In this document: positions 16,141-64,000 of the stretch, in pieces | Numbering within the stretch: position 1 is the stretch's first letter | Layout of the letters: each line of letters begins with the position of its first letter | DNA from: Balanoglossus misakiensis | Taxonomy: Eukaryota > Animalia > Hemichordata | Assembly: GCA_040954595.2 (NCBI GenBank) | Contig: CM082590.2 | Span: forward strand, 4,712,001 to 4,776,000 | Direction of reading: 5' to 3' | Length of the DNA: 64,000 bases | Notes under the pieces: generated by a model | The model's database searches: none | What the model was told of the DNA's origin: nothing | What the model saw: only the letters and a program-made list of their open reading frames with translations | Translations under genes and position numbers: made by a program

Positions 16141-18899
16141 CATATTCAACACCACTATGTTACGGTTAAAACTGCTGTACCAGTTAGTACAGATCTCCAT
16201 TTACCATGGTAACTGTATTTAAATTTGCATGCATGCATTTTGTCTGAAACACAGACGAACCCGTTACATGATATATTTTACATGTCAAGCAAAATGGCTG
16301 CTACATTTGTACATTAAAATGATACGAGGCAACAGGGATTCATATGAAGTGCATTCCTAGAAAAAAAGAAAACTTTATTTAGTTCATTTAATAACAGGCA
16401 TATCAATATTTATCTATACCAGTCATAAATTTTCACCAACAGCTCTATGTACTAGGATCATTTTACCCTGGTTTGTACAAACACATTTGCTTTGCAAAAC
16501 TCTGTACACAGAATCACAAAGTATGTAATGCCAACTATGCATAAACGTTAGGCTACCAATTCTGACGAATATTTAAGATGAATGTGACTGATTGTTTAGA
16601 TGAAAATACATCTCTGTGTAACGTATATTTATAGTTAAATTAAACCTTTACTAACATTATTATTTCTGTTATTTTATACCACTACAACCACAATGCCAAA
16701 GCTAACGCTAGTAACAGATACAACATTACACCCATTATTCTGGAGTAAATTAAGACCATTAAGAAACAAATATTAACCACCTATACCACTCAAGACATAT
16801 TCATTCTCCAACCTATTGCGTCTCAAAGTATCCTGAAGATTCACCAAAACCAAACAATACCACATTGACACATGCTCTGCAGAAACTACTATTATTGGTG
16901 TCTTTCTTACACAGATATAAAGAACTAATCATCATCGTCATTGTTACTGTTTTTGTAACATCTTCATCATCATCATTGTCATCATCATCCTCATTATAAT
17001 CATCATCATCATCATTATCATCATCATCACAATCATCATTATCATCATCATCATTGTAGTCATTATTTTTAGTTATTTTATTATCATCCTCCTATTATTC
17101 ATCCTATTATTCCTAATCATTTTTTTTTCATATTACATTTGTCTTTCAATTGTCATTGATTTTAAGAATATTACTGCTCCAATTTCAACGTGACTGGTGT
17201 GATCATCCTCTTTGCCGTAATTTGCATTTGAACATCATGAAGTTAATCCAAACTGAATAGCAGATGCCTACCATGTCGTTTTTAATCCTCCCTACCTTAA
17301 ATAAGTTTTAAGCTACCTAAGTGAGTGATGAAAATCTCATAATATGGTCGACACAATTTCAAGATGGCCGATTTTTGCCATGTTTAAGAAATGGGAGTTC
17401 ATGAGCTAAAGTGATATTGAGTCTTTCTGAATCTTTGTAACAGAAAAAATAACAAAATGTGAAAAAAGTTTAATGAGTTTGATATGTTAAGTACAAAGAC
17501 AGACATGTTTGACCAAAGGAAGTCATAACATACAGTAAACATATCATTTATTCTATCTCTTACTACAGTGAGTTGTCGACTTTTTACCCAGAAAGCAATT
17601 ATTATAATGTGAATTGACCCCCTAGCACAAAGTGAACACCTATTAAAGGCAGCCAGAATTCTGCACCATCTGCCAATTATGCAATATTTAAGCTGTCAAG
17701 TAAAACAATAAAGTAAATCGTATAAAAAATTTTACTTCCCTGCTCAAAGATCGGCTGCAATAATATACATCCATTTCTGTAATCTTCAACTTTTTCCCAC
17801 AAGTCCTGTCGGCTAGATCACATGGAAAGTTCCTCCTGCAATTTAAGAAAGTTGAAAACAATTTTGAGCACAAAATCAAAACTTTCAAAAAATATAGAAA
17901 TCATGGGTAAGAGGAACTCATATGTTTTCATCTTCAAATTTGTATACAGTTGTTTATAAAACTGTTGCCAGTTCTCATCCACATATAAAAATGAGATAAC
18001 TACAGAGCCTTATATTATAATCCTAAATTTGAAAATTTAGGAGAACATTTACTCTAGTTCTAAGCAGGAAAGTTAAAGGACAAAGTCTCTCTTTGCTACC
18101 CTTTTCCCATTAATTATGTTTGATACAAGACACCGTTTATGTTATTCTACATGGGGATATATAGTGAATCAACGTTCAACCACACACACCTTCCATCCCG
18201 CTTGTAGACATGAGAGTGAAAAACTCGCCAAAATGAATAATCAGTGTCTACCATTTATTCATTTTGGGTGAGCTTTCACTCTCATATCATACAAGTGGTA
18301 TGGAATTTGTGTGTTGTTGAACGTACATTCACTACATATACAAATGTTCATTAACATAAACAGTGTGTTGTATCAAACCTAATTAATGGGAAAAGGGCAG
18401 GGAGAGAGAGACTTTGTCCGTTTAACTTCCTAGGCTGAGAATGCTGAAATACTTGAATAGACGCAGACATGGTCAATTGTCAATAGTCTCCTCAGTAAAA
18501 GCCCAGGAAATGTTACCACAGGCAGTTCAACATTAAGATGATACAGTTGGTGTTTGAATCAAGGGTGCTATTCTTTTGAACTTTATGCAAATGTGCAACT
18601 CAGATCATTGACTCAGAACAGCAGCTCACATTGTAAAATATTGGAAAATGCTTCACAAATCATCATTGATAATCATGATCACACCGAAAAAAGATTAGAT
18701 AGCACAATTTTATTCCTACACTTTACATGGGGTGTAGTAAGTTGCAGTGCAGTGTTCAGACTAAAACTGCAATGGAATTCTCTGCAATTCTTACTCTCAA
18801 TCTTGCCTTACTTTATGAATATTTTGTATACTAGTATGATTGTCATAACGGCAACAGAAAAAATGTCCATCTCATTATCAAAAGGCCCTTAAAGTGGAG

Positions 18900-45416: not shown

Positions 45417-47969
45417 TTTTTTTTTTTTTTTTTATTATAATAATAATTTATTCAGTACCAATGGCCACCGGCCAAACTGTACAAAAATTCCAAGTATTAC
45501 AGGTTTTCGACGCTAGTACGGTATAAAAAATAGATGCACTGTCACAATTCTGGAAATGGAAATACAGAGCCATAATAAACTATACATGTATATTGTTCAA
45601 ATTATCATGTCTACGTTTTGTTGCATAGAATATGTATCTGCTGAGATTACGAACAGTTTCTACTTTCTCTGAAGAAAGAAGTAGTGTGAATTTATACATA
45701 ACAGGGGGGTTGTGAAAATAGTCTGGAATATATTTGACTCTCAAATCAGAGTACTTTGGACAAACTAACAAAAAATGGAATTCGTCTTCGACATATTTCA
45801 AAGAACACAAATCACACAGTCTGTCACGGCGTGGAATATTATTCCAACGTCCGGTCTCTACCTTTAAACAGTGAGCAGAAACTCTAAATTTGCATAGGGC
45901 TAGTCTGAATACAGGTTTCTCAATCTGTAACAAATATGGTTCTACACGGAGTTCTTTTTTAAAAGTTGAATAGGTTTCCAACCTTCTAGAGTGACTCAAA
46001 TTTTCAGTCCATGGCTGAACATCAATATCAACGCATCTTTGTTTGAAAGTCTTTAAAAACATAGCTTCATTTCCAACACCTTGGTTTTCCCATACTTCAC
46101 CAAAACCATAACTCTGTAGCAAAAAGCGTACATTTTTTGCCCAAAACTTATAACGTGTAACATCAATATTACAAAGCTGAAATTCATAGCATTTATATAC
46201 AATTCTATTTTTATCCATTTTCAAAATACGGAGCCAATATTTGATAATTTTACAATAAATATGCACCCTTAAGGTAACTCTACCTAATTCGCCTCTCATG
46301 GCTGCTACTGAAGTATTTTTATACAGTTTTAAAGCATAACGCATCATTTTGTTGTGAAGCTTCTCAATGTCATGAGCTGGGTGGAAGCCCCAGATTTCTG
46401 AACCATACAGTAAAATTGGAATAATTTTAGCATCAAACAATTTCCACACAATGTCCACTGGCAAAGTGCCAAATTTGTGTAAACAATTTGTGAGAGTATA
46501 AAGAGCTCTATTAGCTTGCTCACTGAGTGCTTTTTGAGCTTGGAACCATTGACCGGTCCAGGAAAAAACTACACCAAGATACCCATGAAATGAGGTTACT
46601 GATACCTGCTGACCATTATAAAACCATTTTTCATACTTTCTTAGTCCCCCACTCCTCCTGAAAACAATAACTTTAGTTTTATCCATATTTACTGTGAGTT
46701 TCCATTTACAACAATATTCATACATTTGGTTAAATAAACGTTGTAAACCTATCCTAGAATAACTCACAAGAGCTAGGTCATCAGCAAATAAAAGGTAGAT
46801 AATTTTTAAAATGCCAATTTGACAGCCAGAAAATTGGTAAGTACTACTCAATGTTTCACCAAGGTCATTTACAAACATATTGAATAAAAGAGGTGACAAA
46901 ACAGAGCCTTATTGTACACCACAACTACATTTGAAAAAGTTAGTTATACCTTTCTGAGTTCGCACACAGGCTTTAACATTTTGGTACATTGAAAAGATGA
47001 CATTGTATACTTTACTTCTAATTCCACATTTGAGTAACTTGTAAAAAAGACAGTAGTGGTCAATACGGTCAAATGCCTTCTCAAAATCAATAAAGGCAAT
47101 GTACACTCTCCCCTTTTGGTGTGCTAAATAGTTAGAAATAATTGTATAAAGTATAAATACATTGTCAGAAGTACAATAAAATTTGCGGAAGCCTGCCTGT
47201 TCATCAACAATTGGATGGTTTTCTTCAAGCCATCTGTGGAGTCTAAAATCAAGTATGCTGCAAAATATTTTACCCATTACCGGGACAGTGTGATACCTCT
47301 AAAATTTCCCGCACAATCATTAGCACCTTTCTTATGAATTGGAGCAATGACACCTGTTGCCCAAGCAGCAGGAAAGTTACCAGAATCCAATACAGCATTA
47401 AAAAGTTTACATAGCAATTCTATAACAATAGGTGGACACGCTTTGAATATGTCAGGTGTTACACCGTCAATCCAAGGTGCTTTGCCACATTTGAGTTTGT
47501 CAATACACACAACAATTTCATCAATAACAATAGGTGCATTTAAACTGTCCAAAGTGTACAGAATGTCATCACTGTTTTCTACATTATCAACAAAATTGGA
47601 AATACTCTCATAAAAAGTTTTAAATTCTTCACTTTCCAGACCTGGAGTATTAAGAAGTACACTGAAATAGTTGAACCAGTCATCACTTTGAATGTCTCCA
47701 GACGGGAGAGTTGATTTTTTTAAACTAATGGCCAAAATTTCTTAGAATTTGTCTGTTTCGATGAGTTCACCAAGTTTTCAAGGTTCTGGTGACGGAAACA
47801 CTTCTTTTTGTGATCAATGAACTCTCTATAATCTTTTTTACACTGTTTTAAGGTATTTAAATTACATACAGATCTATTGTTTCTGAAAGTATTAAGCCTG
47901 GAATGTACAGTACGCTTAAATCGCTTACAATCGCTATCATACCATGACTTTTCAATGGGTACAACAGTA
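45417..47969 (-). mobile_element. 5'-truncated, disrupted non-LTR retrotransposon (RTEX-like, tentative), copy C only
   Basis: RT motifs NFRGIT, EQAGFR, FIDFEKAFD, SPLLFN, LLFADD; C-terminal VETGR..RLC..C..EDEFHFLLVC; AATAAA-(TTA)n-polyA tail; 14-bp TSD AACTGAAATGTGTT (45403-45416/47970-47983); stop at 46909, frameshifts at ~47277 and ~47725. Confidence 0.92.
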
Positions 47970-48323
47970 AACTGAAATGTGTTGGAACCCCCTGACTTTA
48001 GGAGCTGAGATCCACTCCTTTGTATATGCTGTAAAAGACAATAAATTTTCGCGAAATACGCGAGAGCCAAAATAGCGTGAAAATAAAAAGTCGCGTAAAT
48101 TTTTTTGAAGATGACGATGCAGTGAATGAAATAAGAGAACGCGAATATTAAAACTCGGGAATTTGTGGGGCAGTTAACCAAAAAATTGTGCACTTTGGGT
48201 TAAAAGCATGAAACTTGGTACACTTATGCATTGACCCATGGCGGCCATTTTATGATATGGATCCAAAATGACAGCGCCCTCTTGTGGCCAGAAACTGACA
48301 TTGACACTTTCCCCCCCCATTAA

Positions 48324-48942
48324 AGGGGAAATCCGCTGTAGCTGATTTCTACATAATTTGGTAGCTTTGATGTCTCTCTTTCAGAATAAAACATATTCGC
48401 CATGTATAGGTCGCGCGATTTTTTACAAAATCTAGGGAAAGTTGGCAGAATTTCCAATATGGCGTTTACTGTAATTTGAATCATGGGAAAAAAAGCGCCA
48501 GGAGCAACTTCCGCCCACCATGGTGTGGGTGATACCATTCTCCGATTGGTGTCACTGGGCGACAGACTAGGCGTATTTTCATAGCTCTTGTTTGTTCTTT
48601 GCATCAGTTGATAAACAATCATCAGCAAAGTCGAAAATTTGTCATCTATTGACAGTTTTCATGAGCTATAACCCATGAAAAATATGCAAATACGCTTAGC
48701 TTGTGACACAGTGACACCAATCGGAAAATGGTATCACCCACACCAAGGTGGGTGGAAGTTGGTCCTGGCGCTTTTTTTCCCATGATTCAAATTACAGTAA
48801 ACGCCATATTGGACATTCTGCCAACTTTCCCTAGATTTTGTAAAAAATCGCGCGACCTATACATGGCGAATATGTTTTTTTCTGAAAGAGAGACATCAAA
48901 GCTACCAAATTATGTAGAAATCAGCTACAGCGGATTTCCCCT
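48324..48942. mobile_element. TTAA MITE with ~235-bp TIRs (Kolobok-like), absent from copy A
   Basis: TTAA|AGGGGAAATCCGCTGTAGC...GCTACAGCGGATTTCCCCT|TTAA. Confidence 0.9.
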
Positions 48943-48946
48943 TTAA

Positions 48947-49450
48947 AGGCACGTAAGCTGCAACTGGATAAAAAATAAATGTTTTAAATAATCTCATATA
49001 TGCTTTTAATTATATCTATTAAATGCTATTTCATGATAATATATCAAGCTCAACACTTATTTATGACAAAATGGCCAAAAATTAAAGAAAAACGAAAATT
49101 CCTGAAATTTTTAAAAAAGTGCAATATTGCAATGGAAAATGGAAATCTGATGTCTCAGTGGTGTACATTTACTTCCATGAGCTCAAGTGGATGAGATCAT
49201 GTTTTGTTTATGAAGTTTCACAACCGGAAATGCGACATTTTCATTGTTTCTTTCATTTTCCCACGGTGGCAGCCATAATCGCTTGCGGCAAAGCTTTATT
49301 ATTTATCTGCTTAAAACTTGCATATGCACTCATATTTAGGGTTTCTAATGCATGTGTATAGTTCACTGCCTTCATCTGCATGGACTAATGGTAGTGCAGT
49401 GTGAAACAAAAATTATGAAAATTATCCCAAAAGTTACAGCTTACGTGCCT
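48947..49450. mobile_element. Second TTAA MITE (Kolobok-like) abutting the first
   Basis: TTAA|AGGCACGTAAGCTG...CAGCTTACGTGCCT|TTAA; copy A has a single TTAA at ~3797. Confidence 0.88.
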
Positions 49451-49821
49451 TTAATGGCACTTTTTGGTCATTTGTAACACTCAGAAACAGGAATGTGGGT
49501 TGTAAAACATGCTTGCTACCATACATTCATGTGTATATTATCCTAATCCTGATATTATTAAAGTGTAAACATCTTCTGCATCTAAACGACCCGTTTTCAG
49601 AAATTCGAGTATGATACGATTATAACCAAATTTCTTCCAGGAATTCTGAGTTTAAATTTCAACACACTGTTTAGTAACATCCCATGGGAAATGAATCAGC
49701 ATTTAGGATAAACTATTTGCAAGCCACTGAAAAGACTGGAAAGACAGATGCGCCCTCATAGTTGTATTGAATGATTGATTTTCCTTTATCTAGTTTCCTT
49801 TTGTGTAAATTTTTTTGAGTG

Positions 49822-49979
49822 TGTAGTGTATCGACCTGAGGTCACATCAGGTCACCTCATTATATATGCAGAACACAATAAAGTTCTTGGGCCATGATGG
49901 CGGCCGTGTATAGATGTTAAATCATGTGTCTGTGTTTAATCCGATTCATCTAGACTAAATATCTAGTTGGAACAGTTCA
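49822..49979 (+). mobile_element. 158-bp putative solo LTR, absent from copy A
   Basis: TGT...TCA termini, TATA-like TTATATAT and AATAAA inside, 5-bp TSD GAGTG; single GAGTG at ~4627. Confidence 0.75.
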
Positions 49980-50036
49980 GAGTGTTCGTAATTTTCTGTT
50001 TGATGTTTATTTTTCCCTTTGGTGTTTTGCTTTTAA

Positions 50037-50221
50037 AGGTATACGGTCACCTATGGAAAATTAGCCATAGTTACCATGGCAAATAGAGATTCAGCCAATC
50101 ACTGATTTTCAGTGGGTGGCACAAGCGAAAAAAAAAGCGCCAACAAATGTTCTTTAGAACCCTCAAATACGCCATTTCAGCCATATATGGGCGTATGTAA
50201 ATTGGAGGTGACTGTATACCT
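50037..50221. mobile_element. 185-bp TTAA MITE, absent from copy A
   Basis: TTAA|AGGTATACGGTCACCT...AGGTGACTGTATACCT|TTAA; empty TTAA at ~4680. Confidence 0.9.
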
Positions 50222-50904
50222 TTAACTGTCACAGAGGTTATTAATAAAACATCACAGATGTTTCCTTATTTGCCTCGCTTTGAGTTCAAAATCATAATGG
50301 CTGTGCGAGGGCGCTAGACTTACGAAAAAGGGTGTACATTGTGCACCACTTTGCAGGTCCTAAGTTGGACTTGTCTGGTCGCCTGCCCCATTTCTGTAGC
50401 ATGGCTGCATTGTGTTACATGAAACGGGTCAGGTAAGGGAAAAACCATTCGATTTCAGGGGGGTTAAGGATTTGGGTATGTGATCCAGTTATTTTCACCC
50501 ACTGTATGTTTACATAATTTTTTTTATATTGCCAGACATACTATTTTTCTCAATGCATTGCAGAAGGTATACTCAGAAATCATTAAAAATTCAATTCAAT
50601 ATTTTTTTTCATTTGCCCCTCTGGGCAGTCTGCCGTGAAATACAAAATCTCAAATATGAGTTATGATTTTTTGATGCCAAAAATGTATTTTGAAATTTTC
50701 CATGAATCTATCCAATGAACTACTAGGCGTAGGAATGTTTACAACGGATATAAAATGAATATTTCAGCATTAAAGTTTTAATAATATCTTCATCAATCAT
50801 ACCTTTTATTTGATAAAAGTAAAAAAAATACAAGATATTGGTATGACTTGTTTAATTAGCACCTTTTATGTTGTATATGTGTATGTACTGGTATGTGTAT
50901 TTTA

Positions 50905-51008
50905 TGTATGTATGTATGTATGTATGTATGTATGTATGTATGTATGTATGTATATATGCATGCACGTATGTACGTATGTATGTATGTATGTATGTATGTA
51001 TGTATGTA
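50905..51008. repeat. (TGTA)n microsatellite
   Basis: Direct reading. Confidence 0.95.
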
Positions 51009-51858
51009 CCAATCTATGTATAGAATAAAAACATTACACCTTCATGCTACAATTACTCAATAATCTTAACCCTTCGCATGGCTAAGATACGAAAATGGCG
51101 TCTATGCTCTACTTTGCACACATAACACTTTAATAAACAGCCAAAGACATTAAGTGCTGAGTGAAGAAGCAAAATTCTTCTGACTGTTGTTTCTTCATGT
51201 TGGAAAGAAGTTTCTCTATTTGAAATCCCTTATTTTCCGATCAAATTTTTCAAGATCATTTTTAGTTTGTTTAAATTGTGACAATTATACTTAAATATAA
51301 ATATTCTCAGAGTTTTGGTTAGAGTGATATTGTGAACATTTGGTGGACTTCCCATCACCTGTTATGAAGTGAAAGTAGAAAACATTAAAGTAGAATACTT
51401 TCCCTGTTAAAAAGTCTTTAATCATTTTCCCCATTGTTGATGAGTTGCCATCATGTGAACAGAACAGATTTTATGAAGAGAAGATTGAATAATGTACTTG
51501 TGCAAACATATTGTATGCGTATTGGACGACAAAATGCCTTGGAAAGCAATACCATTCTACGGACATTATTCTACACTCATTTCAGTATTTTCTTTAGAAA
51601 ACTGTCTTCCACTAGCAATTTTTCTGGTTAACATAAAAAAGTAATTAATTCCAAGAAATCTTTCATCTCTGATGAAAATCTGCCAAAATTAATGACCTAA
51701 CCAATCAACGCTAAAATAACTAAATATAGAATGTTAGCTATTGTGTTTATGAAATTTCTGAGTAGATATTTTGCAATAAAGGAAGCTTCCTTATGGACTT
51801 GCTAAGAATATTTTTTTGGTTCATTTGACAAGATATTGTCTTTACGAATGAGCTGTGA

Positions 51859-52185
51859 CCATTCTTGCATTCATGTCCATGTACGTCATGTGTCTGTAGA
51901 CATATTGTGATCAGACAAATTATTACAACTCTGGTATTCTGTTTACAATGTACTGACTTCAAGTAAAGTTGTTCACATTGACTTCATAAATGATCTGTGT
52001 CCATTCTTGCATTCATGTCCATGTACGTGATGTGTCTATAGACATATTGTGATCAGACAAATTATTACAACTCTGGTATTCTGTTTACAATGTACTTCAA
52101 GTAAAGTTGTTCACATTGACTTCATAAATGATCTGTGTCCATTCTTGCATTCATGTCCATGTGATGTGTCCATAGGCATATCGAG
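51859..52185. repeat. ~140-bp tandem repeat, ~2.3 units, just downstream of the ROCO stop codon
   Basis: CCATTCTTGCATTCATGTCCATGT at ~51859, 52001, 52139. Confidence 0.9.
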
Positions 52186-52278
52186 ACGAGGACAAATTAA
52201 ACTCCATTGTTTGCCCCAGAAATTATAATGGAGGCAAATTTGCATAGAAATAATTGTTATGCCCATGATGTTATCTGT

Positions 52279-53655
52279 TCATTTCGTTTGTGTTTTCGCA
52301 ATTTCTTCGAACATCTCTTCAATCAACGCTACCATGTCGTCTCTTCCCATGGTCTTGAAAATTGCCAACAGATTCTCAAAGTTGCTTTCATAGAGGGGTT
52401 CCTCTACACGTGGATACTTCTGTCTTGCTGTTTTCTGAGCCTTTGCTTCTTCACTTGAATCTTGCGGGGGTGACGATGTTGATGACAGTGACATTTTTGC
52501 CATACGACCTTTGCTGGCATCGATGTCATGTGACATGGCTTTGGCACCTGCAGCTGTAGTTGTGTCTTTTCCACTTTGATGTTGTTTCCTCTCAGCACAT
52601 ATACGACACCACTCTTTGAAGAGGTACTCTGTAACTGGTCTGCCTGCCCGACCTGCAATCTCTTCAAATCCCATGGTATCCTGGCACTTAATGCCCATCA
52701 AATCTGCCATGCGGCCATAGCTCGGAGAAGGATAACGTTGAATGTCCATTCTCCTTGTCAGTTTTCTTCTGGTTTCTTCAAGCATCCATTTGATATCACA
52801 GCGTTTCCACTTCCTTTGTAAGATCGTTGTGTCATGACCTTGACAAAGCAGGTCACAAACATCTTCTGCTTTACCAACTTTTTGGTTGTACACTTTCTTT
52901 CCCATGTCTTCTGCACGTAGCACGTCATCGAGAGTGTAAAACTCTACTTTTTCCATGTTGCTGTGGTTTGCAAGAGAATCTGCACTCAGGATAAGCTGAT
53001 TCATCCTGTTGCCTGGACATGCGATCGAGAAGACATCCTGTATGTCTTTGGAAACCATCTCAAGAAGCTTGTAGCCCTCACCAATCAACTTCTTGTCTTC
53101 AACTCGTACACAGACATTGACTGCCCTTCTGCCATTGGTCATAAAGACAAGACCTTCAACATCATGGCACACTTTGATACCATTTCTCCATAAGCCACTG
53201 GGCGGCTGGCCAAGCTCTGTGAAATGCTTATATAGACGGGTCTGTAATCTTGGGAAAAAGCCTGCCGTAAAGGAATCTGTTTCATCGTGGCATTCAAAAC
53301 GTCTTCCAAGGTAGATGGTCTTCATTCGGCTCACCTCCCATTGACCTTCAGGCATATCGTCGTCTTGAAGCCCTGGTATGACGAATAGTTTCTCTCCAGT
53401 CTCTGTGATATCATGTGCTTGACAGAGAAGCTCAAAATCCTCTAGAAGGTCGACGATCAGTTGGCTGTTAACACCTTCACCAAGTACATCTTCTATCTTG
53501 TCCATTGACTGAAAACAATCTCTCTTGAACCTGGAACTGAATTGTGCAAATAAAGGGGTAGCCAACATTGGTCCAAACATCCTGTAACACAACCAGTTTG
53601 GATCCAATACCACGACATCTTTTCTTTCTAGAGATGACTTCTTCACAAACAAAAG
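52279..53655 (-). CDS. Terminal exon: COR domain plus death-like domain, TGA stop
   Basis: cag|LLFVKK...VVLDPNWLC...FTAGFFPRLQTRL...LWRNGI...RRKLTRRMD...YGRMADLMGI...LLAIFKTMGRDDMVALIEE*; 459 uninterrupted codons. Confidence 0.93.
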   Translation of the reverse strand, partial: LLFVKKSSLERKDVVVLDPNWLCYRMFGPMLATPLFAQFSSRFKRDCFQSMDKIEDVLGEGVNSQLIVDLLEDFELLCQAHDITETGEKLFVIPGLQDDDMPEGQWEVSRMKTIYLGRRFECHDETDSFTAGFFPRLQTRLYKHFTELGQPPSGLWRNGIKVCHDVEGLVFMTNGRRAVNVCVRVEDKKLIGEGYKLLEMVSKDIQDVFSIACPGNRMNQLILSADSLANHSNMEKVEFYTLDDVLRAEDMGKKVYNQKVGKAEDVCDLLCQGHDTTILQRKWKRCDIKWMLEETRRKLTRRMDIQRYPSPSYGRMADLMGIKCQDTMGFEEIAGRAGRPVTEYLFKEWCRICAERKQHQSGKDTTTAAGAKAMSHDIDASKGRMAKMSLSSTSSPPQDSSEEAKAQKTARQKYPRVEEPLYESNFENLLAIFKTMGRDDMVALIEEMFEEIAKTQTK

Positions 53656-55108
53656 CTGTAAACAAGAAAAATAATGTGAAAAATTGTTATGGAAGGAACA
53701 ATCTGTAACTCTTTTACACATCAACTGCATTAAACGCTGATAAATTCATTTTGTCAAATTTGATGTATCGCATACACTCATCCCAGAATTTGTACAAACA
53801 GAGAATGGATGAGCAACATGATGTTTCTTGTTACTGACCTCTCCTATGTCATGCAGATAGTTGGTGGCTTTTCGTAAGAAACTTTCGTCAATCGTGGGGT
53901 AAATTTCTTTGATTTTCGCCACATATTTTGTCCAATAAAGAGCTGGGAAGTCATCATATAATTCCCTCTTCTTTTCCATTATCTTGGCACACACGCTTGG
54001 AAGCATTTTCACTTTCTAAGAATAAAAATAAATTGATAACATGAAATAATTGGAAGTACCCAAACATTATATTCAGTCAATTTAGGGACTGTGTCACTAA
54101 AAAGAAATATTAAATAAAACCATGAATGACCATGCAAGTCTAATAAGTGACACATAAAACAAAGCATAGAATTTTATTTATCCAATGAAAATTTATGTTG
54201 AAAATATCTGTAGTATACATGGGGGCAGGGGATCAAAAAAGTATCTTTGTAAATCAAGTATCATTTTGACAAGATTTTCATTTGCTTTAAATTCAAATTC
54301 TGATTTTCAGTGGAACTGACCTATCTTGTTTCAACATTTTCATCATTGGTAATTTGGTAAAAAGCATCTCACAACAATGCATTCCAGCTAACATTTTTTT
54401 TGTTTGTAATTACTGAAAATGTTACTTTTGCCAGAAATTCTAATATCAACTAATACTTGTACAACATGATGAGGATGTAATGTTTTACACTTTCAGATAT
54501 ATATTCTTCATGAATCTTGTAGTTGTACACCAATACTGCAGTGCTCTAGTGTATCTGTGCTGATAAAACTTAACAATTCAAAGGCAAATGACTACAGCGA
54601 AATATTGTTACCTTTTTCTGATTTAAACAATCACGGAGTTTCTTCATTTCACTGTCTGTAGAATTACGGCAATTCAACGGAAATATGTCGCTCACTATGT
54701 CTAAATAATCTTGAAACATAGTCTGGGCTTTTGTCAGAACTTCCTTCAGCAAATGACGAGCTGTAAATTATAAAGAGATGACAATATTAATAGCCAGATA
54801 ACTCCATATGAAGAAACTATGGCAAAAAAAGTTCTGCTGTAAACCTCTCTCTCTATTGGGCATAAAATAGTCAGGCCCCAGTTCCCTGTTTATACGTCCA
54901 ACCTTACCATAGAAAACAATTGGTTTGGACTGAATCATGGTGGTGAAATGGTGAAATGTTTTTTATGATTATTTCCAAACTGTGATTTGTGAATCAACTA
55001 ACTATGTTCCACTCAAGTAAATATATTGAAATGCTAAGTATTCAGTTGCTGACTGCGTGGTGAGATGAAACAAACAAACAAACAAACAAACAAACAAACA
55101 AACAAACA

Positions 55109-55140
<32 letters not shown>

Positions 55141-58100
55141 CGAAGTATCCGGTTCGACTGGTCCGATCCAAAGTGCTCAATACAAGAGTAGAGCGGAGTA
55201 TAAAGGAGGGTAGTAGGAGAAACGGAAGGCGGTTAAATCTCTACAACGCTGTTTCGTGAGTCACTAGACTCACTCATCAGGAGATCAAACTGGCGAAAAT
55301 GCAAGGGGGAAGGCATGTTTTTATGCAGGTACACAGGTGGACAGAAATACCTCCTTCTCATAGACAAATGCTTCCCGCAAGACAACAAACTCAGGAAAAT
55401 ATTCAACAGGAACACGATGAAAATTAGCTACAGCTGTATGAACAACAAGAAGCAGATCATCGACAACCACAACAAACGCATCTTGAAATCACACGACAAC
55501 AACACAGACGAGACCGACAACACCAAGACTTGCAACTGCCGACAAAAGGACAAATGCCCGCTCGACGGCAACTGCCACCAAAGCTCCGTCATCTACCAGG
55601 CCACAGTTACGCGCACAGACAACAACACCTCGGATACATACGTCGGACTAACCGAAAACGACTTCAAAACAAGATACAGAAACCACACTTCATCTTTCCG
55701 ACTCGCACGCTCCAGGAACTCCACTGAACTCAGCAAACATATTTGGACTCTGAAGGACAACGACATCGCCCACACTATTTCATGGAAAATTTTAGCCAAA
55801 GCCAAACCATACAACAGCGCAACCAAACGGTGCAACCTCTGCTTAACAGAGAAATTTATTATCATTCGCAACCCAGAAATTTCAACACTCAATAAAAGAA
55901 ACGAACTTGTGTCCTCTTGTCGACACAGACACAAAGCATTGTTACGCAACAATTAAATCTAAAAACTCCCCACACACCAGCTATACACATTGTTATGCAA
56001 AACGGCCCACCCCAACTTACATTCCACCACCTGTGTACCTGCATATAACCACGTCTTCCCCCTTGCATTTTCGCCAGTTTGATCTCCTGATGAGTGAGTC
56101 TAGTGACTCACGAAACAGCGTTGTAGAGATTTAACCGCCTTCCGTTTCTCCTACTACCCTCCTTTATACATACATACATACATACATTCATACATACATA
56201 CATACATACATACATACACATATATACATACACATACTGTACATACACACACTTGAACAAATGACAGATATTATTTGATATATGGAAAAGCTGACAACAC
56301 TAACCTAGAGCCATATCAATTCTCTTCAACTTATCAGCTCGACTTGCAACCAATATCACCACTGGTTTCTCGTATCCTTCTCCTGACTTATCAAATGAAT
56401 ACCTGTCCATGTGGGTTGTTCCTTTCAGAAACCGCAACCAAAACAAAATCTACAAATGAGAATATTTGTGAAAAGTATTATTTTTGAGTCAAAGGAATCA
56501 TGAATTGAATCCAACATGAGATTTCTCATGATTCAGGTAATATCTGGAGCTATGCGATAAACAATGTGAAATAATAATTGAACAACAATGGCATGTTGGT
56601 TCTGCAGGAGACTAATTATAGAAATATCTGCAACTCTATCAAAAAGCCATGAATGGTGACCGAGATAGTGTTGCACATGGAATAAAGTTTCTCAAACAGC
56701 AATATTTTCCATTCCTACAGATAAAACTTGGAAAGTGATAAACAATACAGTCAAACTTTCCTGTGAAGATTCTTACCCGTGGGAACACACGTTCAAAGGT
56801 GTTGAGTTTACCATTCTCGTCTGTAGCTTTGAACACCAATATGGAGACAGCATTGGGTGCTCCCAGAAACATGTTATGAGTGACGTAATACTCAGCCTGG
56901 CCGGCAAAATCCCAAACACTGACATTTCCGACGTCAGGAATATGAACACTTTGGACATCAATACCAGGTGTGGGAATGTGTTCACTTTCTTCAGAAGTTG
57001 TACGTCTCCGTGAAAACCACGAGTATACAATGAAGTTAAACAAAGAAAACTATCATTGGGATTATATATTTATCACATGACAGGCATCTCTTGCTTCACA
57101 AATCACAGAAAATGACATTTTGAGGACAGAGTGAGTAAGGGTTTATTAAGAATTCATTCTGGCCCATCATTTCATCCAGTTTGCAAACTTTCACACAAGC
57201 AACCCTTAATTTATTGCAATATGGCCTACTAGAACTTTAATGCAAATGAAACAAAAATATCAACATACCCTCTGAAGTGACTTCAATAATGTAGTCTTAC
57301 CAACTCCACCATCTCCAGCGAAGAACAACTTAAAAATGTCACATTTCACACCTGGTTCCATCATCAGGATCTTGAACTCATTTCGTCTCTGGTTAAATAA
57401 AGAAATCATAAAAATACAATTTTATTTGTGGGTTTGGAGAGTACAGTTAAGAGTGACACCACATTAAGTAATTTATATCACACTGAAATCAATGGACACT
57501 TTTAATTCAAGATGAATAAGAATGAGCACATTTCAGGTTGTATATTATTAAAATTTGTGATAATATAAAAAATACACTCACCTTAATGTAATCCAACAGC
57601 AACTTCTTAACAGACACTTTTTTAGCGACATCAAGTGGGGTCTTTCCAGTCTAATTATTTAAGATAAAAAGAATTGAAACAATATGATGTTAATATTTAT
57701 AAAAGTAGTAATAATGTAAGAGATAACCATAATTCAAAATTCATTAAATTCTATTGTAATTTTAAAGTTAATTTTGTTTTAAATTTTTCATGAAAAAAAT
57801 AACCACATCAAGTGACATGTTTAATAGTGAATAAAACCTGAATTTCACAAAATTAACAATCATTTAAAGAAAATAAACCCTGATTCCTCTTTTCCATCAC
57901 ACTGTATCAAAAAGTCTTACAAAAAGGACAAAATTATTTAAAACACAAATAAGAAAAATCTCCTTATTAGGAATTGTCAGATTATTAGAAAAAATGTGCA
58001 TAAACATTAATCATTTAATTCAAATTCAAAGATTATGAAGATTAACTACTTGAGAAAAGGGGAGTTGATCTGAACACATGGTGTAGGTCTAGAGTGTCAT

Positions 58101-61100
58101 GGAATAAAATATAAAAGTGGAAGATTGTACCTTATTTTTGCAGTCAATATCAGCTCCATATTGCAACAATAGTTTCACAACTTTTCCATAATCCCCCTGA
58201 AACTCTCCGCCCATTGCTGCCATGTGGAGTGCTGTGTTGCCATCCTATCCAAGAAACAAAAACAGACAACATTATGTAAGAGGTACAACAAGAAAAGTCA
58301 TAAAATTAAATTCGAAATGTACTGTGAGATTTCAACAAACAAACAAACAAACAAACAAACAAATGTTTCTAAACTGATAGAATTAACCTGCAGAAGCCAG
58401 GTAGGTATTTACCTTGTTTTGTATGGTCACATCAGCTTTGTGTTCCAATAACAATCTGACACGGCCTTCATCACCATACCTTGCTGCTACAAGGTGCAAA
58501 GGGGTGTCTCCATCCTGTAAGTAATGAAGGAGGAGCATGATGAGGATGTCAGAAAACTGAAATGTCACATGAGTTAATTTCTTAAAATGAATAAATGAAT
58601 AAAAAAACAAACAACAAATACTCATCATAAACTCAAACAATGAAAAAATCTCCTTATAATGAATTGTCAGATTATTAGGTGACAGACAGGAGTTGGCAGA
58701 TGCTGGAGGCCGACAGACAATCGCCCTATCTGATACTCTCCACATCACAGAAAGTGGAGATAGATAGTCTCAAAGATAGGATTGGCATCGACCGTCATGA
58801 GTCAACACTTGCCTGTACAACACCTGACCCGATAGAGGGAGTAGTTTTGATTCAATTAAAGGACAATGACAAATTATATGGCACCTCCTTATGATCAATT
58901 GTATTAGGTGACAGACAGGTGTTGGCAGATGCTGGAGGCCGACAGACAATCGCCCTATCTGATACTCTCCACATCACTGAAAGTGGAGATAGAAAGTCTC
59001 AAAGATAGGATTGGCATCGACCGTCATGAGTCAACACCTGCCTGTACAACACCTGACCCGATAGAGGGAGTAGTTTTGATTCAAAGGACAATGACAAATT
59101 ATATGGCACCTCCTTATGATCAATTGTATTAAGTGACAGACAGGAGTTGGCAGATGCTGGAGGCCGACAGACAATCGCCCTATCTGATACGCTCCACATC
59201 ACTGAAAGTGGAGATAGAAAGTCTCAAAGATAGGATTGGCATCGACCGTCATGAGTCAACACCTGCCTGTACAACACCTGACCTGATAGAGGGAGTACTT
59301 TTGATTCAATGGACAATGACAAATTATATGGCACCTCCTTATGATCAATTGTATAAGGTGACAGACAGGAGTTGGCAGATGCTGGAGGCCGACAGACAAT
59401 CACCCTATCTGATACTCTCCACATCACTGAAAGTGGAGATAGAAAGTCTCAAAGATAGGATTGGCATCGACCGTCATGAGTCAACACCTGCCTGTACAAC
59501 ACCTGACCTGATAGAGGGAGTAGTTTTGATTCAATGGACAATGACAAATTATATGGCACCTCCTTATGATCAATTGTATTAGGTGACAGACAGGTGTTGG
59601 CAGATGCTGGAGGCCGACAGACAATCGCCCTATCTGATACGCTCCACATCACTGAAAGCGGAGATAGAAGTCTCAAAGATAGGATTGGCATCGACCGTCA
59701 TCAGTCAACACCTGCCTGTACAACACCTGACCTGATAGAGGGAGTAGTTTTGATTCAAAGGACAATGACAAATAGATACATTGTATCCTCAACACAATTT
59801 ACCACAAAAACTACAATGGAAAGAACACCATTGTGCAAACTCATACTGTTTTAGGAGTGCTTGGTTAAAATAGTGTTCAGGCATTTTCAGACTTTTACAA
59901 AATTGTACATTTCAAATTCAAAGATTATGAAGATTAACTACTTGAGAAAATGGGAGTTGATCAGAACACATGGTGTAGGTCTAGAGTGTCATGGAATAAA
60001 ATATAAAAGTGGAAGATTGTACCTTATTTTTGCAGTCAATATCAGCTCTATATTGCAACAATAGTTTCACAACTTTTTTATAATCACCATACCACTCATT
60101 GCCCATTGCTGCCAGGTGAAGTGCTGTGTTGCCATCCTATCCAAGAAACAAAAACAGACAACATCATGTAAGAGGTACAACAAGAAAAGTTCTGCATAAA
60201 CAGCTCAACCAAACATACTGAATTGATAATTAACCTCTAGTTTTTCAATAGTATTTAGGATGCTTATATCATTTTTGAGTTGGATGTCTCCACGTCAATG
60301 TAGCTTCAAGTGATAGAGTTGAATTAAATGAATGAATTGTGTGTATTTCGTCCACCATGTGAGAATGTTACATATGAACATAAATTTCCTCATAATGATA
60401 AACTATTTAAAGAAAATATGGGTAGTAGATTGTGCCTTTATTCATCTTGACAGTTTTGAGGGAAAAACTGATTTGGATCAATTTGTAAAGATCTGCATAA
60501 GACCAGAAAATTTACATGGATGGGAAATCTTTATTTAGACAAAAGACTAGAGATGACATTGATGACCATTAATGTTCAGAAAGTGTTTGTTTGAGTGAAA
60601 TACTGTGTTTTGATTCGCATAGAGCACCTAAGTTACTGGTATCATTATCAGAGGTACAGAACTTGTCTGTGGTCATCCATTATTATGAAGCAGTTTCCTT
60701 GTGAGTAATTTCTTTTCAACACCGTTCTGGTGAGTATTTCTGTATGTGATAGAGGAGGAGCATGAGAACAATGTCATAAAATGTGAAATGTTAAGTGAGG
60801 TTTCCTAAACAAATAAATAAAGAAATAAAGAAACAAACAAACAAACAAACAAACCAATCTTTCTAAATTAATAGAATTAACCTGTAGAAGTCAGGTTGGT
60901 ATTAACCTTGTTTTGCATGGTCACATCAGCTTTGTGTTCCAATAACAATCTGAGACCGCCTTCATTGGGAGACCCTGCTGCAAGGTGCAAAGGGGTGTTT
61001 CCATTCTGTAAGTTGAAGGAGGAGCATGATGAGGAAGTCAGAAAACTGTCACATGAGTTAATTTCTTAAAATGAACAAATGAATAAAAAACAACAACAAA

Positions 61101-64000
61101 TAGTCATCATAAACTCAAACATCTCAAACAATGAAAAAATCTCCTAATAATGAATTGTCAGATTATTAGAGGGAGTAGTTTTGATTCAAAGGACAATGAC
61201 AAATTATATGGCACCTCCTTATGATCAATTGTATTAGGTGACAGACAGGAGTTGGCAGATGCTGGAGGCCGACAGACAATCGCCCTATCTGATATACTCC
61301 ACATCACTGAAAGTGGAGATAGAAAGTCTCAAAGATAGGATTGGCATCGACCGTCATGAGTCAACACCTGCCTGTACAACACCTGACCCGATAGAGGGAG
61401 TAGTTTTGATTCAAAGGACAATGACAAATTATATGGCACCTCCTTATGATCAATTGTATTAGGTGACAGACAGGAGTTGGCAGATGCTGGAGGCCGACAG
61501 ACAATCGCCCTATCTGATATACTCCACATCACTGGAAGTGGAGATAGAAAGTCTCAAAGATAGGATTGGCATCGACCGTCATGAGTCAACACCTGCCTGT
61601 ACAACACCTGACCCGATAGAAGGAGTAGTTTTGATTCAAAGGACAATGACAAATTATATGGCACCTCCTTATGATCAATTGTATTAGGTGACAGACAGGA
61701 GTTGGCAGATGCTGGAGGCCGACAGACAATCGCCCTATCTGATACTCTCCACATCACTGAAAGTGGAGATAGAAAGTCTCAAAGATAGGATTGGCATCGA
61801 CCGTCATGAGTCAACACCTGCCTGTACAACACCTGACCCGATAGAGGGAGTAGTTTTGATTCAAAGGACAATGACAAATTATATGGCACCTCCTTATGAT
61901 CAATTGTATTAGGTGACAGACAGGAGTTGGCAGATGCTGGAGGCCGACAGACAATCGCCCTATCTGATACTCTCCACATCACTGAAAGTGGAGATAGAAA
62001 GTCTCAAAGATAGGATTGGCATCGACCGTCATGAGTCAACACCTGCCTGTACAACACCTGACCCGATAGAAGGAGTAGTTTTGATTCAAAGGACAATGAC
62101 AAATTATATGGCACCTCCTTATGATCAATTGTATTAGGTGACAGACAGGAGTTGGCAGATGCTGGAGGCCGACAGACAATCGCCCTATCTGATATACTCC
62201 ACATCACTAAAAGTGGAGATAGAAAGTCTCAAAGATAGGATTGGCATCGACCGTTATGAGTCAACACCTGCCTGTACAACACCTGACCCGATAGAGGGAG
62301 TAGTTTTGATTCAAAGGACAATGACAAATTATATGGCACCTCCTTATGATCAATTGTATTAGGTGACAGACAGGAGTTGGCAGATGCTGGAGGCCGACAG
62401 ACAATCGCCCTATCTGATATACTCCACATCACTGAAAGTGGAGATAGAAAGTCTCAAAGATAGGATTGGCATCGACCGTCATGAGTCAACACCTGCCTGT
62501 ACAACACCTGACCAAATAGAGGGAGTAGTTTTGATTCAAAGGACAATGACAAATTATATGGCACCTCCTTATGATCAATTGTATTAGGTGACAGACAGGA
62601 GTTGGCAGATGCTGGAGGCCGACAGACAATCGCCCTATCTGATACTCTCCACATCACTGAAAGTGGAGATAGAAAGTCTCAAAGATAGGATTGGCATCGA
62701 CCGTCATGAGTCAACACCTGCCTGTACAACACCTGACCCTATAGAGGGAGTACTTTTGATTCAAAGGGCAATGACAAATTATATGGCACCTCCTTATGAT
62801 CAATTGTATTAGGTGACAGACAGGTGTTGGCAGATGCTGGAGGCCGACAGACAATCGCCCTATCTGATACTCTCCACATCACTGAAAGTGGAGATAGAAA
62901 GTCTCAAAGATAGGATTGGCATCGACCGTCATGAGTCAACACCTGCCTGTACAACATCTGACCCGATAGAGGGAGTAGTTTTCATTCAAAGGACAATGAC
63001 AAATTATATGGCACCTCCTTATGATCAATTGTATTAGGTGACAGACAGGTGTTGGCAGATGCTGGAGGCCGACAGACAATCGCCCTATCTGATACTCTCC
63101 ACATCACTGAAAGTGGAGATAGAAAGTCTCAAAGATAGGATTGGCATCGACCGTCATGAGTCAACACCTGTCTGTACAACACCTGACCCGATAGAGGGAG
63201 TAGTTTTGATTCAATGGACAATGACAAATTATATGGCACCTCCTTATGATCAATTGTATTAGGTGACAGACAGGTGTTGGCAGATGCTGGAGGCCGACAG
63301 ACAATCGCCCTATCTGATACTCTCCACATCACTGAAAGTGGAGATAGAAAGTCTCAAAGATAGGATTGGCATCGACCGTCATGAGTCAACACCTGCCTGT
63401 ACAACACCTGACCTGATAGAGGGAGTACTTTTGATTCAATGGACAATGACAAATTATATGGCACCTCCTTATGATCAATTGTATTAGGTGACAGACAGGT
63501 GTTGGCAGATGCTGGAGGCCGACAGACAATCGCCCTATCTGATACTCTCCACATCACTGAAAGTGGAGATAGAAAGTCTCAAAGATAGGATTGGCATCGA
63601 CCGTCATCAGTCAACACCTGCCTGTACAACACCTGACCAAATAGAGGGAATAGTTTTGATTCAAAGGACAATGGCAAATAGATACATTGTATCCTCAACA
63701 CAATTTACGACAAAAACTACAATGGAAAGAAGACCATTGTGCAAACTCATACTGTTTTAGGAGTGCTTGGTTAAAATAGTGTTCAGGCATTTTCAAGACT
63801 TTTTATAAAATTGTGCATTTCAAATTCAAAGATTATGAAGATTAACTACTTGAGAAAATGGGAGTTGATCAGAACACATGGTGTAGGTCTAGAGTGTCAT
63901 GGAATAAAATATAAAAGTGGAAGATTGTACCTTATTTTTGCAGTCAATATCAGCTCCATATTGCAACAATAGTTTCACAACTTTTCCATAATCCTTCCGA
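52279..64000 (-). CDS. Ankyrin-Roc-COR-death domain ROCO protein gene (DAPK1-like architecture, no kinase seen in window), 5'-incomplete, >=12 exons
   Basis: Exons read manually and joined in frame: 63931->64000, 60907-61005, 60023-60136, 58413-58514, 58131-58244, 57582-57650, 57269-57388, 56777-57022/57049, 56305-56449, 54612-54760, 53839-54015, 52279-53655. Junctions are GT-AG except one doubtful acceptor near 57023. Motifs: ankyrin G.T[PA]LH, P-loop GDGGVGKT, TPGID, WDFAGQ, VILVASRAD, COR LHDIGE/VVLDPNWL/FFPRLQ, C-terminal death-fold. Confidence 0.9.
53839..54015 (-). CDS. COR N-terminal exon
   Basis: tag|KVKMLPSVCAKI...FLRKATNYLHDIGE|gtcagt. Confidence 0.9.
54612..54760 (-). CDS. Roc C-terminal exon
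   Basis: cag|(A)RHLLKEVLTKAQTMFQDYLDIVSDIFPLNCRNSTDSEMKKLRDCLNQKK|gtaac; donor chosen because it is phase 0 with the next exon. Confidence 0.82.
55237..55285 (-). ncRNA. Type I hammerhead ribozyme, inverted copy (sense to the ROCO pre-mRNA)
   Basis: Exact reverse complement of 56082-56130. Confidence 0.88.
56082..56130 (+). ncRNA. Type I hammerhead ribozyme in Penelope pLTR
   Basis: ATCTC-CTGATGA-GTGAGTC(TAGT)GACTCAC-GAAAC-AGCGTT-GTA-GAGAT: complete catalytic core, stems I and II, short stem III. Confidence 0.88.
56305..56449 (-). CDS. Roc exon with G4 region (missed by ORF track)
   Basis: tag|ILFWLRFLKGTTHMDRYSFDKSGEGYEKPVVILVASRADKLKRIDMAL+G|gttagt; ends in phase 1, matching the next exon. 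Confidence 0.88.
56777..57022 (-). CDS. Roc exon with switch I/II (acceptor uncertain: 57022 after a non-canonical AC, or 57049 after an in-frame AG)
   Basis: SWFSRRRTTSEESEHIPTPGIDVQSVHIPDVGNVSVWDFAGQAEYYVTHNMFLG...VFPR|gtaag. Confidence 0.85.
57269..57388 (-). CDS. Roc GTPase exon with P-loop
   Basis: cag|RRNEFKILMMEPGVKCDIFKLFFAGDGGVGKTTLLKSLQR|gtatg. Confidence 0.92.
57582..57650 (-). CDS. C-terminal capping ankyrin exon
   Basis: tag|TGKTPLDVAKKVSVKKLLLDYIK|gtgagt. Confidence 0.88.
58131..58244 (-). CDS. Ankyrin exon type A (114 nt, phase 0-0)
   Basis: tag|DGNTALHMAAMGGEFQGDYGKVVKLLLQYGADIDCKNK|gt. Confidence 0.92.
58413..58514 (-). CDS. Ankyrin exon type B (102 nt, phase 0-0)
   Basis: cag|DGDTPLHLVAARYGDEGRVRLLLEHKADVTIQNK|gt. 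Confidence 0.92.
58679..59772. repeat. 225-bp intronic satellite, ~4.8 units
   Basis: GTGACAGACAGG unit starts at 58679, 58908, 59133, 59358, 59583. Confidence 0.97.
60023..60136 (-). CDS. Ankyrin exon type A (114 nt, phase 0-0)
   Basis: tag|DGNTALHLAAMGNEWYGDYKKVVKLLLQYRADIDCKNK|gt. Confidence 0.9.
60907..61005 (-). CDS. Ankyrin exon type B (99 nt, phase 0-0)
   Basis: cag|NGNTPLHLAAGSPNEGGLRLLLEHKADVTMQNK|gt. Confidence 0.9.
61168..63680. repeat. 225-bp intronic satellite, ~11 units
   Basis: Unit starts every 225 nt from 61238 to 63488, preceded by a partial unit. Confidence 0.97.
63931..64000 (-). CDS. Ankyrin exon type A (cut by window end)
   Basis: Translates RKDYGKVVKLLLQYGADIDCKNK, then GT donor; paralogous to 58131-58244 and 60023-60136. 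Confidence 0.9.

What the first reader, a model, noticed from the sequence alone, without database searches (positions are those of the whole stretch)
57582..64000. ROCO gene with duplicating one-exon-per-ankyrin cassettes: candidate diversifying immune receptor
Seen: every complete ankyrin repeat is one phase-0/phase-0 exon. Types A (114 nt) and B (99-102 nt) alternate in tandem cassettes whose A exons end at 58131, 60023 and 63931. The cassettes share intron sequence and feed into Roc-COR-death domain. Established: symmetric exons can be gained, lost or skipped without frameshift. A repeat-sensor/NTPase/death-fold layout parallels NLR-type receptors, and exon-shuffled LRR-ROCO genes were proposed as pathogen receptors in the brown alga Ectocarpus. 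Inference: this is an animal ankyrin-based analogue whose sensor is rebuilt by cassette duplication and/or alternative splicing.
Basis: partly seen in the sequence, partly recalled or inferred. Interest (0 to 1): 0.85.

Follow-up and report, generated by a model that had tools for sequence, protein, structure and literature searches.

The report
Acorn-worm ankyrin-cassette ROCO sensor gene
An animal gene, likely from an acorn worm, builds its binding end from recently copied two-exon ankyrin cassettes that differ mostly in one short loop, and joins them to a GTPase switch and a predicted death domain, so it likely works as a fast-diversifying intracellular immune sensor of a design that the papers I found describe only in brown algae and fungi.

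Summary
On the minus strand, four whole ankyrin exons (B2 99, A2 114, B1 102, A1 114 nt) and part of a fifth are phase 0/0. They splice with GT-AG ends into a 912-residue open frame ending in Roc, COR and a death domain predicted by fold (Z 11).

New here: cassette copies differ at 19 of 75 nt in codons 8-20, against 16 of 394 in flanking introns (p 5e-8). Public DNA contigs show ten or more further loop variants. The gene lies in a kinase-less acorn-worm clade, not among the DAPK1 kinases tested (AU p 1e-5). Its relatives end in death, CARD, caspase or GT4 domains.

Not shown: immune function, expression, exon skipping in this gene, the 5' end (outside the window). One Roc acceptor is doubtful, so a decaying copy is possible. 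No paper on this animal family turned up in ten searches. This scan noted the same design before: two other loci of this genome, a feather star and a mussel.

The parts
63931..64000 (-). Ankyrin exon A3, 3' 70 nt (cut by window end), phase-0 donor
   Evidence: 3 of 70 nt differ from A1, 10 of 70 from A2
61167..63679 (.). 225-bp satellite, 11.2 copies, in the A3-B2 intron
60907..61005 (-). Ankyrin exon B2, 99 nt, phase 0/0
60740..60830 (-). Orphan copy of the B-type splice-acceptor region with no recognisable exon behind it (likely a lost B-type exon)
   Evidence: local score 79 vs shuffle max 45; exon scores at chance
60023..60136 (-). Ankyrin exon A2, 114 nt, phase 0/0
58673..59773 (.). 225-bp satellite, 4.9 copies, same insertion point in the A2-B1 intron
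58413..58514 (-). Ankyrin exon B1, 102 nt, phase 0/0
58131..58244 (-). Ankyrin exon A1, 114 nt, phase 0/0; variable loop about 58185-58208
57582..57650 (-). C-cap exon, 69 nt, phase 0/0
   Evidence: aligns to P0013
57269..57388 (-). Roc exon 1 with the P-loop
56777..57049 (-). Roc exon 2; its 5' acceptor is uncertain
   Evidence: Pfam Roc E 7e-7; repeat-like depth and other letters at 57034 and 57050
56305..56449 (-). Roc exon 3, phase 0/1
55198..56169 (+). Intronic mobile-element remnant: 239-aa GIY-YIG-like frame between 143-bp inverted flanks
54612..54760 (-). Roc exon 4, phase 1/0
53839..54015 (-). COR-A exon, phase 0/0
52279..53655 (-). Last exon: COR, then a predicted death domain (within 52282-52815) split by a low-confidence insert of about 55-60 residues, then the stop

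Best explanation
This gene, likely an acorn worm's, encodes an ankyrin-Roc-COR protein with a predicted death domain, whose ankyrin end grew by tandem copying of a two-exon cassette and whose copies differ mainly in one loop, and it likely acts as an intracellular non-self sensor. Shown: exon layout, open frame, shared cassette introns, loop-clustered changes, place in a clade whose members show no kinase. Inferred mechanism of change: unequal crossing-over or gene conversion between near-identical cassette introns adds, drops and mixes B+A units in the germ line without frameshift, and selection favours new loop residues. Inferred mechanism of action: ligand binding on the ankyrin stack shifts the Roc-COR nucleotide and dimer state, which clusters the death domains and recruits a death-domain adaptor for cell death or NF-kB-type signalling. 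Exon skipping is possible but untested.
For: Open 912-aa frame, canonical ends on all 11 whole exons, 48% identity over 868 columns to Ptychodera P0013, which has the same B-A-cap order. Codons 8-20: 19 of 75 nt differ, vs 16 of 394 in introns (p 5e-8) and 5 of 138 in the rest of the exons. Window-free permutation p 5e-5 (A) and 0.006 (B). In the P0013 model the A-type stretch is a 9-residue loop between the two helices. In one outside sample, 17 of 19 listed A-side and 17 of 21 listed B-side variant rows fall at A codons 13-17 and B codons 7-15; single variant letters stand in 10-16 contigs (40 of 69 rows shown). Repeat pairs at least 70% identical occur in 7 of 16 kinase-less relatives and 0 of 31 kinase-bearing DAPK1s. 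Relatives end in death, CARD, caspase or GT4-conflict domains. Death fold Z 11.1 Pelle, 11.0 IRAK2 complex, 10.3 MyD88. Parallels: PMC3341825, PMC11378527, PMC4986451, PMC8195603.
Against: No ligand or immune data. pN 0.29 vs pS 0.135 in the loop rests on about 17 and 2 changes, so dN/dS alone proves nothing. Outside the loop the exons change as fast as introns, and 4 of those 5 changes are non-synonymous, so there is no purifying signal among recent changes. Short conversion tracts from diverged paralogues could cluster changes without selection. The A loop lies at the helix-helix turn, beside rather than on the classic ankyrin groove (recalled). The first 55-60 nt of Roc exon 2 look like a high-copy repeat, and the acceptor G at 57050 is another letter in all contigs listed there. 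The 5' end is outside the window.
Confidence: 0.6

Rival explanations
1. Neutral turnover: satellite-laden introns promote unequal crossing-over, and short conversion tracts from paralogues scramble a dispensable loop; the protein is an ordinary DAPK-like scaffold.
For: Satellite arrays in both A-to-B introns. The surrounding 45 kb is also tandemly duplicated. The columns that vary in relatives are those least constrained in any ankyrin repeat (recalled). dN/dS is not significant.
Against: Loop divergence is about six times intron divergence, in A and B types separately. The same short stretches vary across many contigs. No DAPK1 kinase tested has near-identical repeats (0 of 31).
Confidence: 0.15
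2. This copy is a young pseudogene or decaying member of a real receptor family.
For: Doubtful Roc exon 2 acceptor overlapping repeat-like sequence; orphan acceptor at 60740; several insertions; no purifying signal outside the loop; many family gene models are fragments.
Against: 912 codons open with one terminal stop and GT-AG ends throughout. The P-loop and later G-box-like motifs align with relatives. The doubtful stretch is in frame and of about the expected length.
Confidence: 0.12
3. The diversification is real but serves non-pathogen recognition, such as symbiont, self/non-self or selfish-element sensing.
For: Fast-evolving repeat NLRs in fungi include allorecognition genes (PMC13449251, start of abstract in search listing); nothing here names a ligand.
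Against: CARD, caspase and GT4 effector swaps in relatives match counter-invader systems (PMC8195603).
Confidence: 0.09
4. It is DAPK1, or a kinase-bearing DAPK1 duplicate, with the kinase beyond the window.
For: Same ankyrin-Roc-COR-death order as DAPK1; databases name the relatives 'DAPK1-like'; the 5' end is not seen; no named deuterostome DAPK1 kinase was in my tree.
Against: 0 of the 48 best-scoring Roc-COR relatives carry a kinase (some are fragments or isoforms). AU test rejects grouping with 5 kinase-bearing DAPK1s and one unnamed sister row, p 1e-5.
Confidence: 0.04

Closest known systems
Brown-algal LRR-ROCO candidate receptors (PMC3341825: abstract and section 15; PMC11378527: abstract, section 11, part 1 of the Discussion)
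   Same: One repeat per symmetric exon in front of Roc-COR; recent rearrangement of repeat exons; change concentrated at few repeat positions; proposed immune role.
   Different: Ankyrin rather than LRR; phase 0 rather than phase 2; a two-exon A+B unit; a C-terminal death domain; no inverted repeat exons found in this window; splice variants reported in algae, untested here.
Fungal NLRs with internally conserved ANK repeats (PMC4986451, passages)
   Same: Near-identical ankyrin repeats, repeat-number change, hypervariable sites; swappable effectors.
   Different: NACHT/NB-ARC ATPase rather than Roc-COR; sensor C-terminal and effector N-terminal, the reverse of this gene.
DAPK1 (kinase-ankyrin-Roc-COR-death)
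   Same: Ankyrin, Roc, COR, death order; a neighbouring ROCO clade in my tree.
   Different: No kinase in close relatives, multi-copy, recently copied repeats, separate clade.
Prokaryotic LRR-AP-GTPase-COR-effector counter-invader proteins (PMC8195603, section 15) and Trichoplax ROCOs with CARD/death domains (PMC4104024, passages)
   Same: Repeat sensor, Roc-COR switch, variable C-terminal effector, including GT4 and caspase types seen in this family.
   Different: LRR or TPR sensors; no exon cassettes described in what I read.

Membership tests
ROCO proteins | Roc GTPase domain followed by COR | tested here: met
   Pfam Roc E 7e-7, COR-B E 1.5e-8; model of closest relative P0013 matches LRRK2, LRRK1 and C. 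tepidum Roco at E 1e-17 to 1e-21
ROCO proteins | GTP binding, hydrolysis and dimer cycle | not testable with these tools
   motifs align with relatives; no assay
DAPK1 orthologues | N-terminal kinase domain | tested here: inconclusive
   5' end outside the window; 0 of 48 closest relatives have one
DAPK1 orthologues | Roc-COR groups with kinase-bearing DAPK1 | tested here: not met
   separate clades (quick tree); AU p 1e-5 (LG+G4); only protostome DAPK1s were named in the set
DAPK1 orthologues | C-terminal death domain | tested here: met
   Z 11.1, rmsd 3.2, 98 aligned to Pelle DD; 14 chains at Z>=8, death-fold entries fill the top rows; Foldseek only E 3.3
NLR receptors | NACHT or NB-ARC ATPase core | tested here: not met
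   core is Roc-COR; NB-ARC and NACHT hits are below cut-off and cover only the P-loop
Exon-shuffling ROCO receptors (brown-algal type) | One repeat per symmetric exon | tested here: met
   4 of 4 whole exons phase 0/0
Exon-shuffling ROCO receptors (brown-algal type) | LRR repeats | tested here: not met
   repeats are ankyrin
Exon-shuffling ROCO receptors (brown-algal type) | Diversifying selection at ligand-facing sites | tested here: inconclusive
   strong clustering above intron rate but too few codons for dN/dS; conversion not excluded
Exon-shuffling ROCO receptors (brown-algal type) | Inverted or inactive repeat exons in introns | tested here: inconclusive
   no extra ankyrin exon in six frames; one orphan acceptor; most of the array may lie outside the window
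Exon-shuffling ROCO receptors (brown-algal type) | Alternative splicing of repeat exons | not testable with these tools
   no RNA run was available to lay; a database isoform of an amphioxus relative lacks three whole repeats

The most novel reading that the evidence does not exclude
Acorn worms keep a large genomic reservoir of ankyrin cassette exons, far more numerous than the Roc-COR cores, and exchange the short binding loop between copies through their near-identical flanks, possibly also in somatic cells or by combinatorial splicing. That would be an intracellular, ankyrin-based receptor repertoire in an invertebrate deuterostome. Hints: summed contig depth over the B exon is 30-100 times that over Roc-COR in one sample (not a copy number), loops vary while flanks stay about 96% identical, and A3 resembles A1 in its exon but A2 in its intron.
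Probability: 0.12. Interest if true: 0.92.

Novelty: new variant of a known kind. Interest (0 to 1): 0.7.

Why it matters
If right, animals have a family of intracellular recognition proteins, separate from NLRs and hidden under the label 'DAPK1-like', that diversify by exon-cassette copying with a hypervariable loop. It would extend the brown-algal ROCO receptor idea to deuterostomes close to the chordate root, give a candidate immune role for kinase-less ROCOs, and offer a natural ankyrin binder library. It is directly testable by long-read haplotypes, Iso-Seq and loop swaps.

Tried and rejected
No whole genome is held, so the 5' end and paralogues could not be read. No RNA holder listed; this says nothing on expression. 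Contig depth as copy number: not relied on; what look like the same contigs differ several-fold in depth ratio between X1 and X2, and X3/X4 show no excess at the B exon but none at an evident repeat either. Foldseek alone missed the death domain. Weak ankyrin-profile hits at 16677 and 40291 were read and rejected as noise. The hit on Roc exon 2 arose because one non-ankyrin stretch of that exon entered my profile. That profile also under-scores the window's own pairs (0.67, while A1/A2 are 32 of 38 and B1/B2 24 of 33 identical), so counts are rough. Database isoform pairs: 1 of 8 pairs compared differed by whole ankyrin repeats (nine comparisons, one of them between two species). The careful tree did not finish; the quick tree is used. 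The satellite's open frame has no credible relative. 105 frames picked by length and composition from 1400-24000 and 48200-52200 gave no Pfam hit (15 of 120 candidates, mostly in simple or 91-bp repeats, were not sent). Papers PMC1266365, PMC9334734, PMC11463336 and PMC3710099 (passages) did not describe this family. No supplements were read.

Full report
Observation. The gene is on the minus strand. In transcript order the window holds part of exon A3 (63931-64000), then B2 (99 nt), A2 (114), B1 (102), A1 (114) and a 69-nt cap exon, all phase 0/0 with AG and GT ends. Each of the four whole exons hits Pfam Ank above cut-off. Six more exons follow, and B2 to the stop gives 912 codons with no internal stop. 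The best relative is Ptychodera flava P0013, 48% over 868 columns, with the same short-B, long-A, cap order. All nine hits of two searches with the last exon were acorn-worm proteins, so the source is likely an acorn worm.

Cassettes. The repeated unit is B+A with its introns. Copies are 87-99% identical in the shared parts. Both A-to-B introns hold the same 225-bp satellite at the same point, 4.9 and 11.2 copies, so the satellite likely came before the duplication and then changed length. One outside contig joins the two sides without the satellite (X1, 58639 to 57971). Cassette 2 keeps an orphan B-type acceptor with no exon behind it; by eye, loose contig ends beside intact B exons resemble it. 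A3 is nearer A1 in its exon (3 vs 10 differences of 70) but nearer A2 in its intron (0 vs 2 of 112, plus the satellite). That means either mixing between cassettes or fast change of A2. The copies differ too much to be an assembly echo.

Where the changes fall. In codons 8-20, 19 of 75 nt differ between copies, against 5 of 138 in the rest of the exons and 16 of 394 in flanking introns (p 4e-6 and 5e-8). I chose that range after seeing the data, so I also ran a sliding-window permutation: p 5e-5 for A1/A2 and 0.006 for B1/B2. In a model of P0013 the A-type stretch is a 9-residue loop between helix 1 and helix 2. From recall, the ankyrin binding groove is the hairpin and helix 1, so this loop borders it; B changes at codons 1, 3 and 12 fall on recalled binder positions. 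Loop pN is 0.29 and pS 0.135, on too few sites to test. Outside the loop there is no purifying signal. Conversion tracts remain a rival cause.

Outside DNA. Five runs were listed, none RNA. X1 and X2 are one sample that differs from the window at many places. Of 40 rows shown (69 in all), 17 of 19 A-side rows lie at 58196-58208 and 17 of 21 B-side rows at 58471-58496; single variant letters stand in 10-16 contigs. The choice of rows may favour long loop-spanning contigs, and a 3-nt gap inflates the B rows. Summed depth over the B exon is far above that over Roc-COR (63,000 vs 900-1,800 in X1); the tool warns that this is no copy number, and I treat it as a hint only.

Core and effector. Roc and COR-B are found by Pfam, and the P0013 model matches LRRK and bacterial Roco structures. 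The last 178 residues fold as a helical bundle with a low-confidence insert that matches death domains: Pelle Z 11.1 (rmsd 3.2, 98 aligned), IRAK2 complex 11.0, MyD88 10.3. Z 11 is under the tool's caution level for helical bundles, but death-fold entries fill the top rows. One weak point: the first 55-60 nt of Roc exon 2 overlap a stretch of repeat-like depth, and listed contigs lack the acceptor G at 57050. The frame is open through it, but use of that site is unproven.

Family. A profile search and look-ups found ankyrin-Roc-COR proteins without a kinase in acorn worms, starfish, a brittle star and amphioxus, with 0 to 19 repeats and death, CARD, caspase or GT4-conflict ends. None of the 48 best-scoring relatives has a kinase, though some models are fragments. 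In a quick tree of 50 Roc-COR rows, chosen by me from 170 with enough cover, the window is sister to P0013 (99), inside an acorn-worm clade (99) and a wider clade with echinoderm and amphioxus rows (95), apart from DAPK1. An AU test on 19 rows rejects joining it to DAPK1 (p 1e-5); no named deuterostome DAPK1 was in the set. Near-identical repeat pairs occur in 7 of 16 kinase-less and 0 of 31 kinase-bearing proteins, with different repeat types in Glandiceps, Ptychodera and amphioxus, so copying likely recurred separately. One amphioxus isoform model lacks exactly 99 residues, three whole repeats.

Mechanism. Shown: symmetric exons, tandem copying, loop-focused change, Roc-COR with a predicted death fold. 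Inferred: germ-line unequal exchange rebuilds the sensor; ligand binding changes the Roc-COR nucleotide and dimer state (ROCO dimer models, PMC4104024 passages); clustered death domains recruit an adaptor. I put this at 0.6, neutral turnover at 0.15, decaying copy at 0.12, non-pathogen recognition at 0.09 and kinase-bearing DAPK1 at 0.04.

Comparison and novelty. It works like the brown-algal LRR-ROCO genes and fungal ANK-NLRs but belongs to neither; it is a ROCO and, on the tree, not DAPK1. Bacterial repeat-Roc-COR-effector proteins are proposed counter-invader systems. Ten searches returned no paper on ankyrin-cassette ROCOs in animals; the library lacks most subscription journals, and I read no supplements. 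Earlier notes of this scan report the same design at two other loci of this genome, in a feather star and in a mussel; they are unchecked and are not counted as support. Verdict: real, a new variant of a known kind, interest 0.7.

Noticed in passing
window 1-45001: Large tandem duplication, units of roughly 18-24 kb in about three partial copies at 88-98% identity, each holding 91-bp, about 280-bp and about 200-bp arrays that differ in copy number (91-bp array: 10 vs 31 copies). No Pfam gene in the frames scanned.
   Followed up: partly
window 45580-48199, minus strand: Frameshifted LINE-type reverse transcriptase remnant (Pfam RVT_1).
   Followed up: partly
window 55198-56169: Intronic element with a 239-aa frame resembling GIY-YIG clusters (family on 23% of members) between 143-bp inverted flanks, set in a CATA microsatellite; Penelope-like by recall.
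   Followed up: partly
window 56993-57056: Short stretch with repeat-like depth in outside contigs that overlaps the start of Roc exon 2; possible exonised repeat or damage.
   Followed up: partly
window 52384-52560: Low-confidence insert of about 55-60 residues inside the death domain; longest here and in P0005/P0013, shorter in other acorn-worm relatives.
   Followed up: partly
P0016, P0028, P0029 (unnamed ENA proteins): Very long ankyrin-rich proteins of 3,100-6,600 aa; P0028 and P0029 carry Roc-COR (20 and 48 repeats counted) and fall in a distant clade.
   Followed up: no
P0163, P0131, P0039: Family members with a caspase-like end (starfish, amphioxus) or a GT4-conflict end (amphioxus) in place of, or after, the death fold.
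   Followed up: partly
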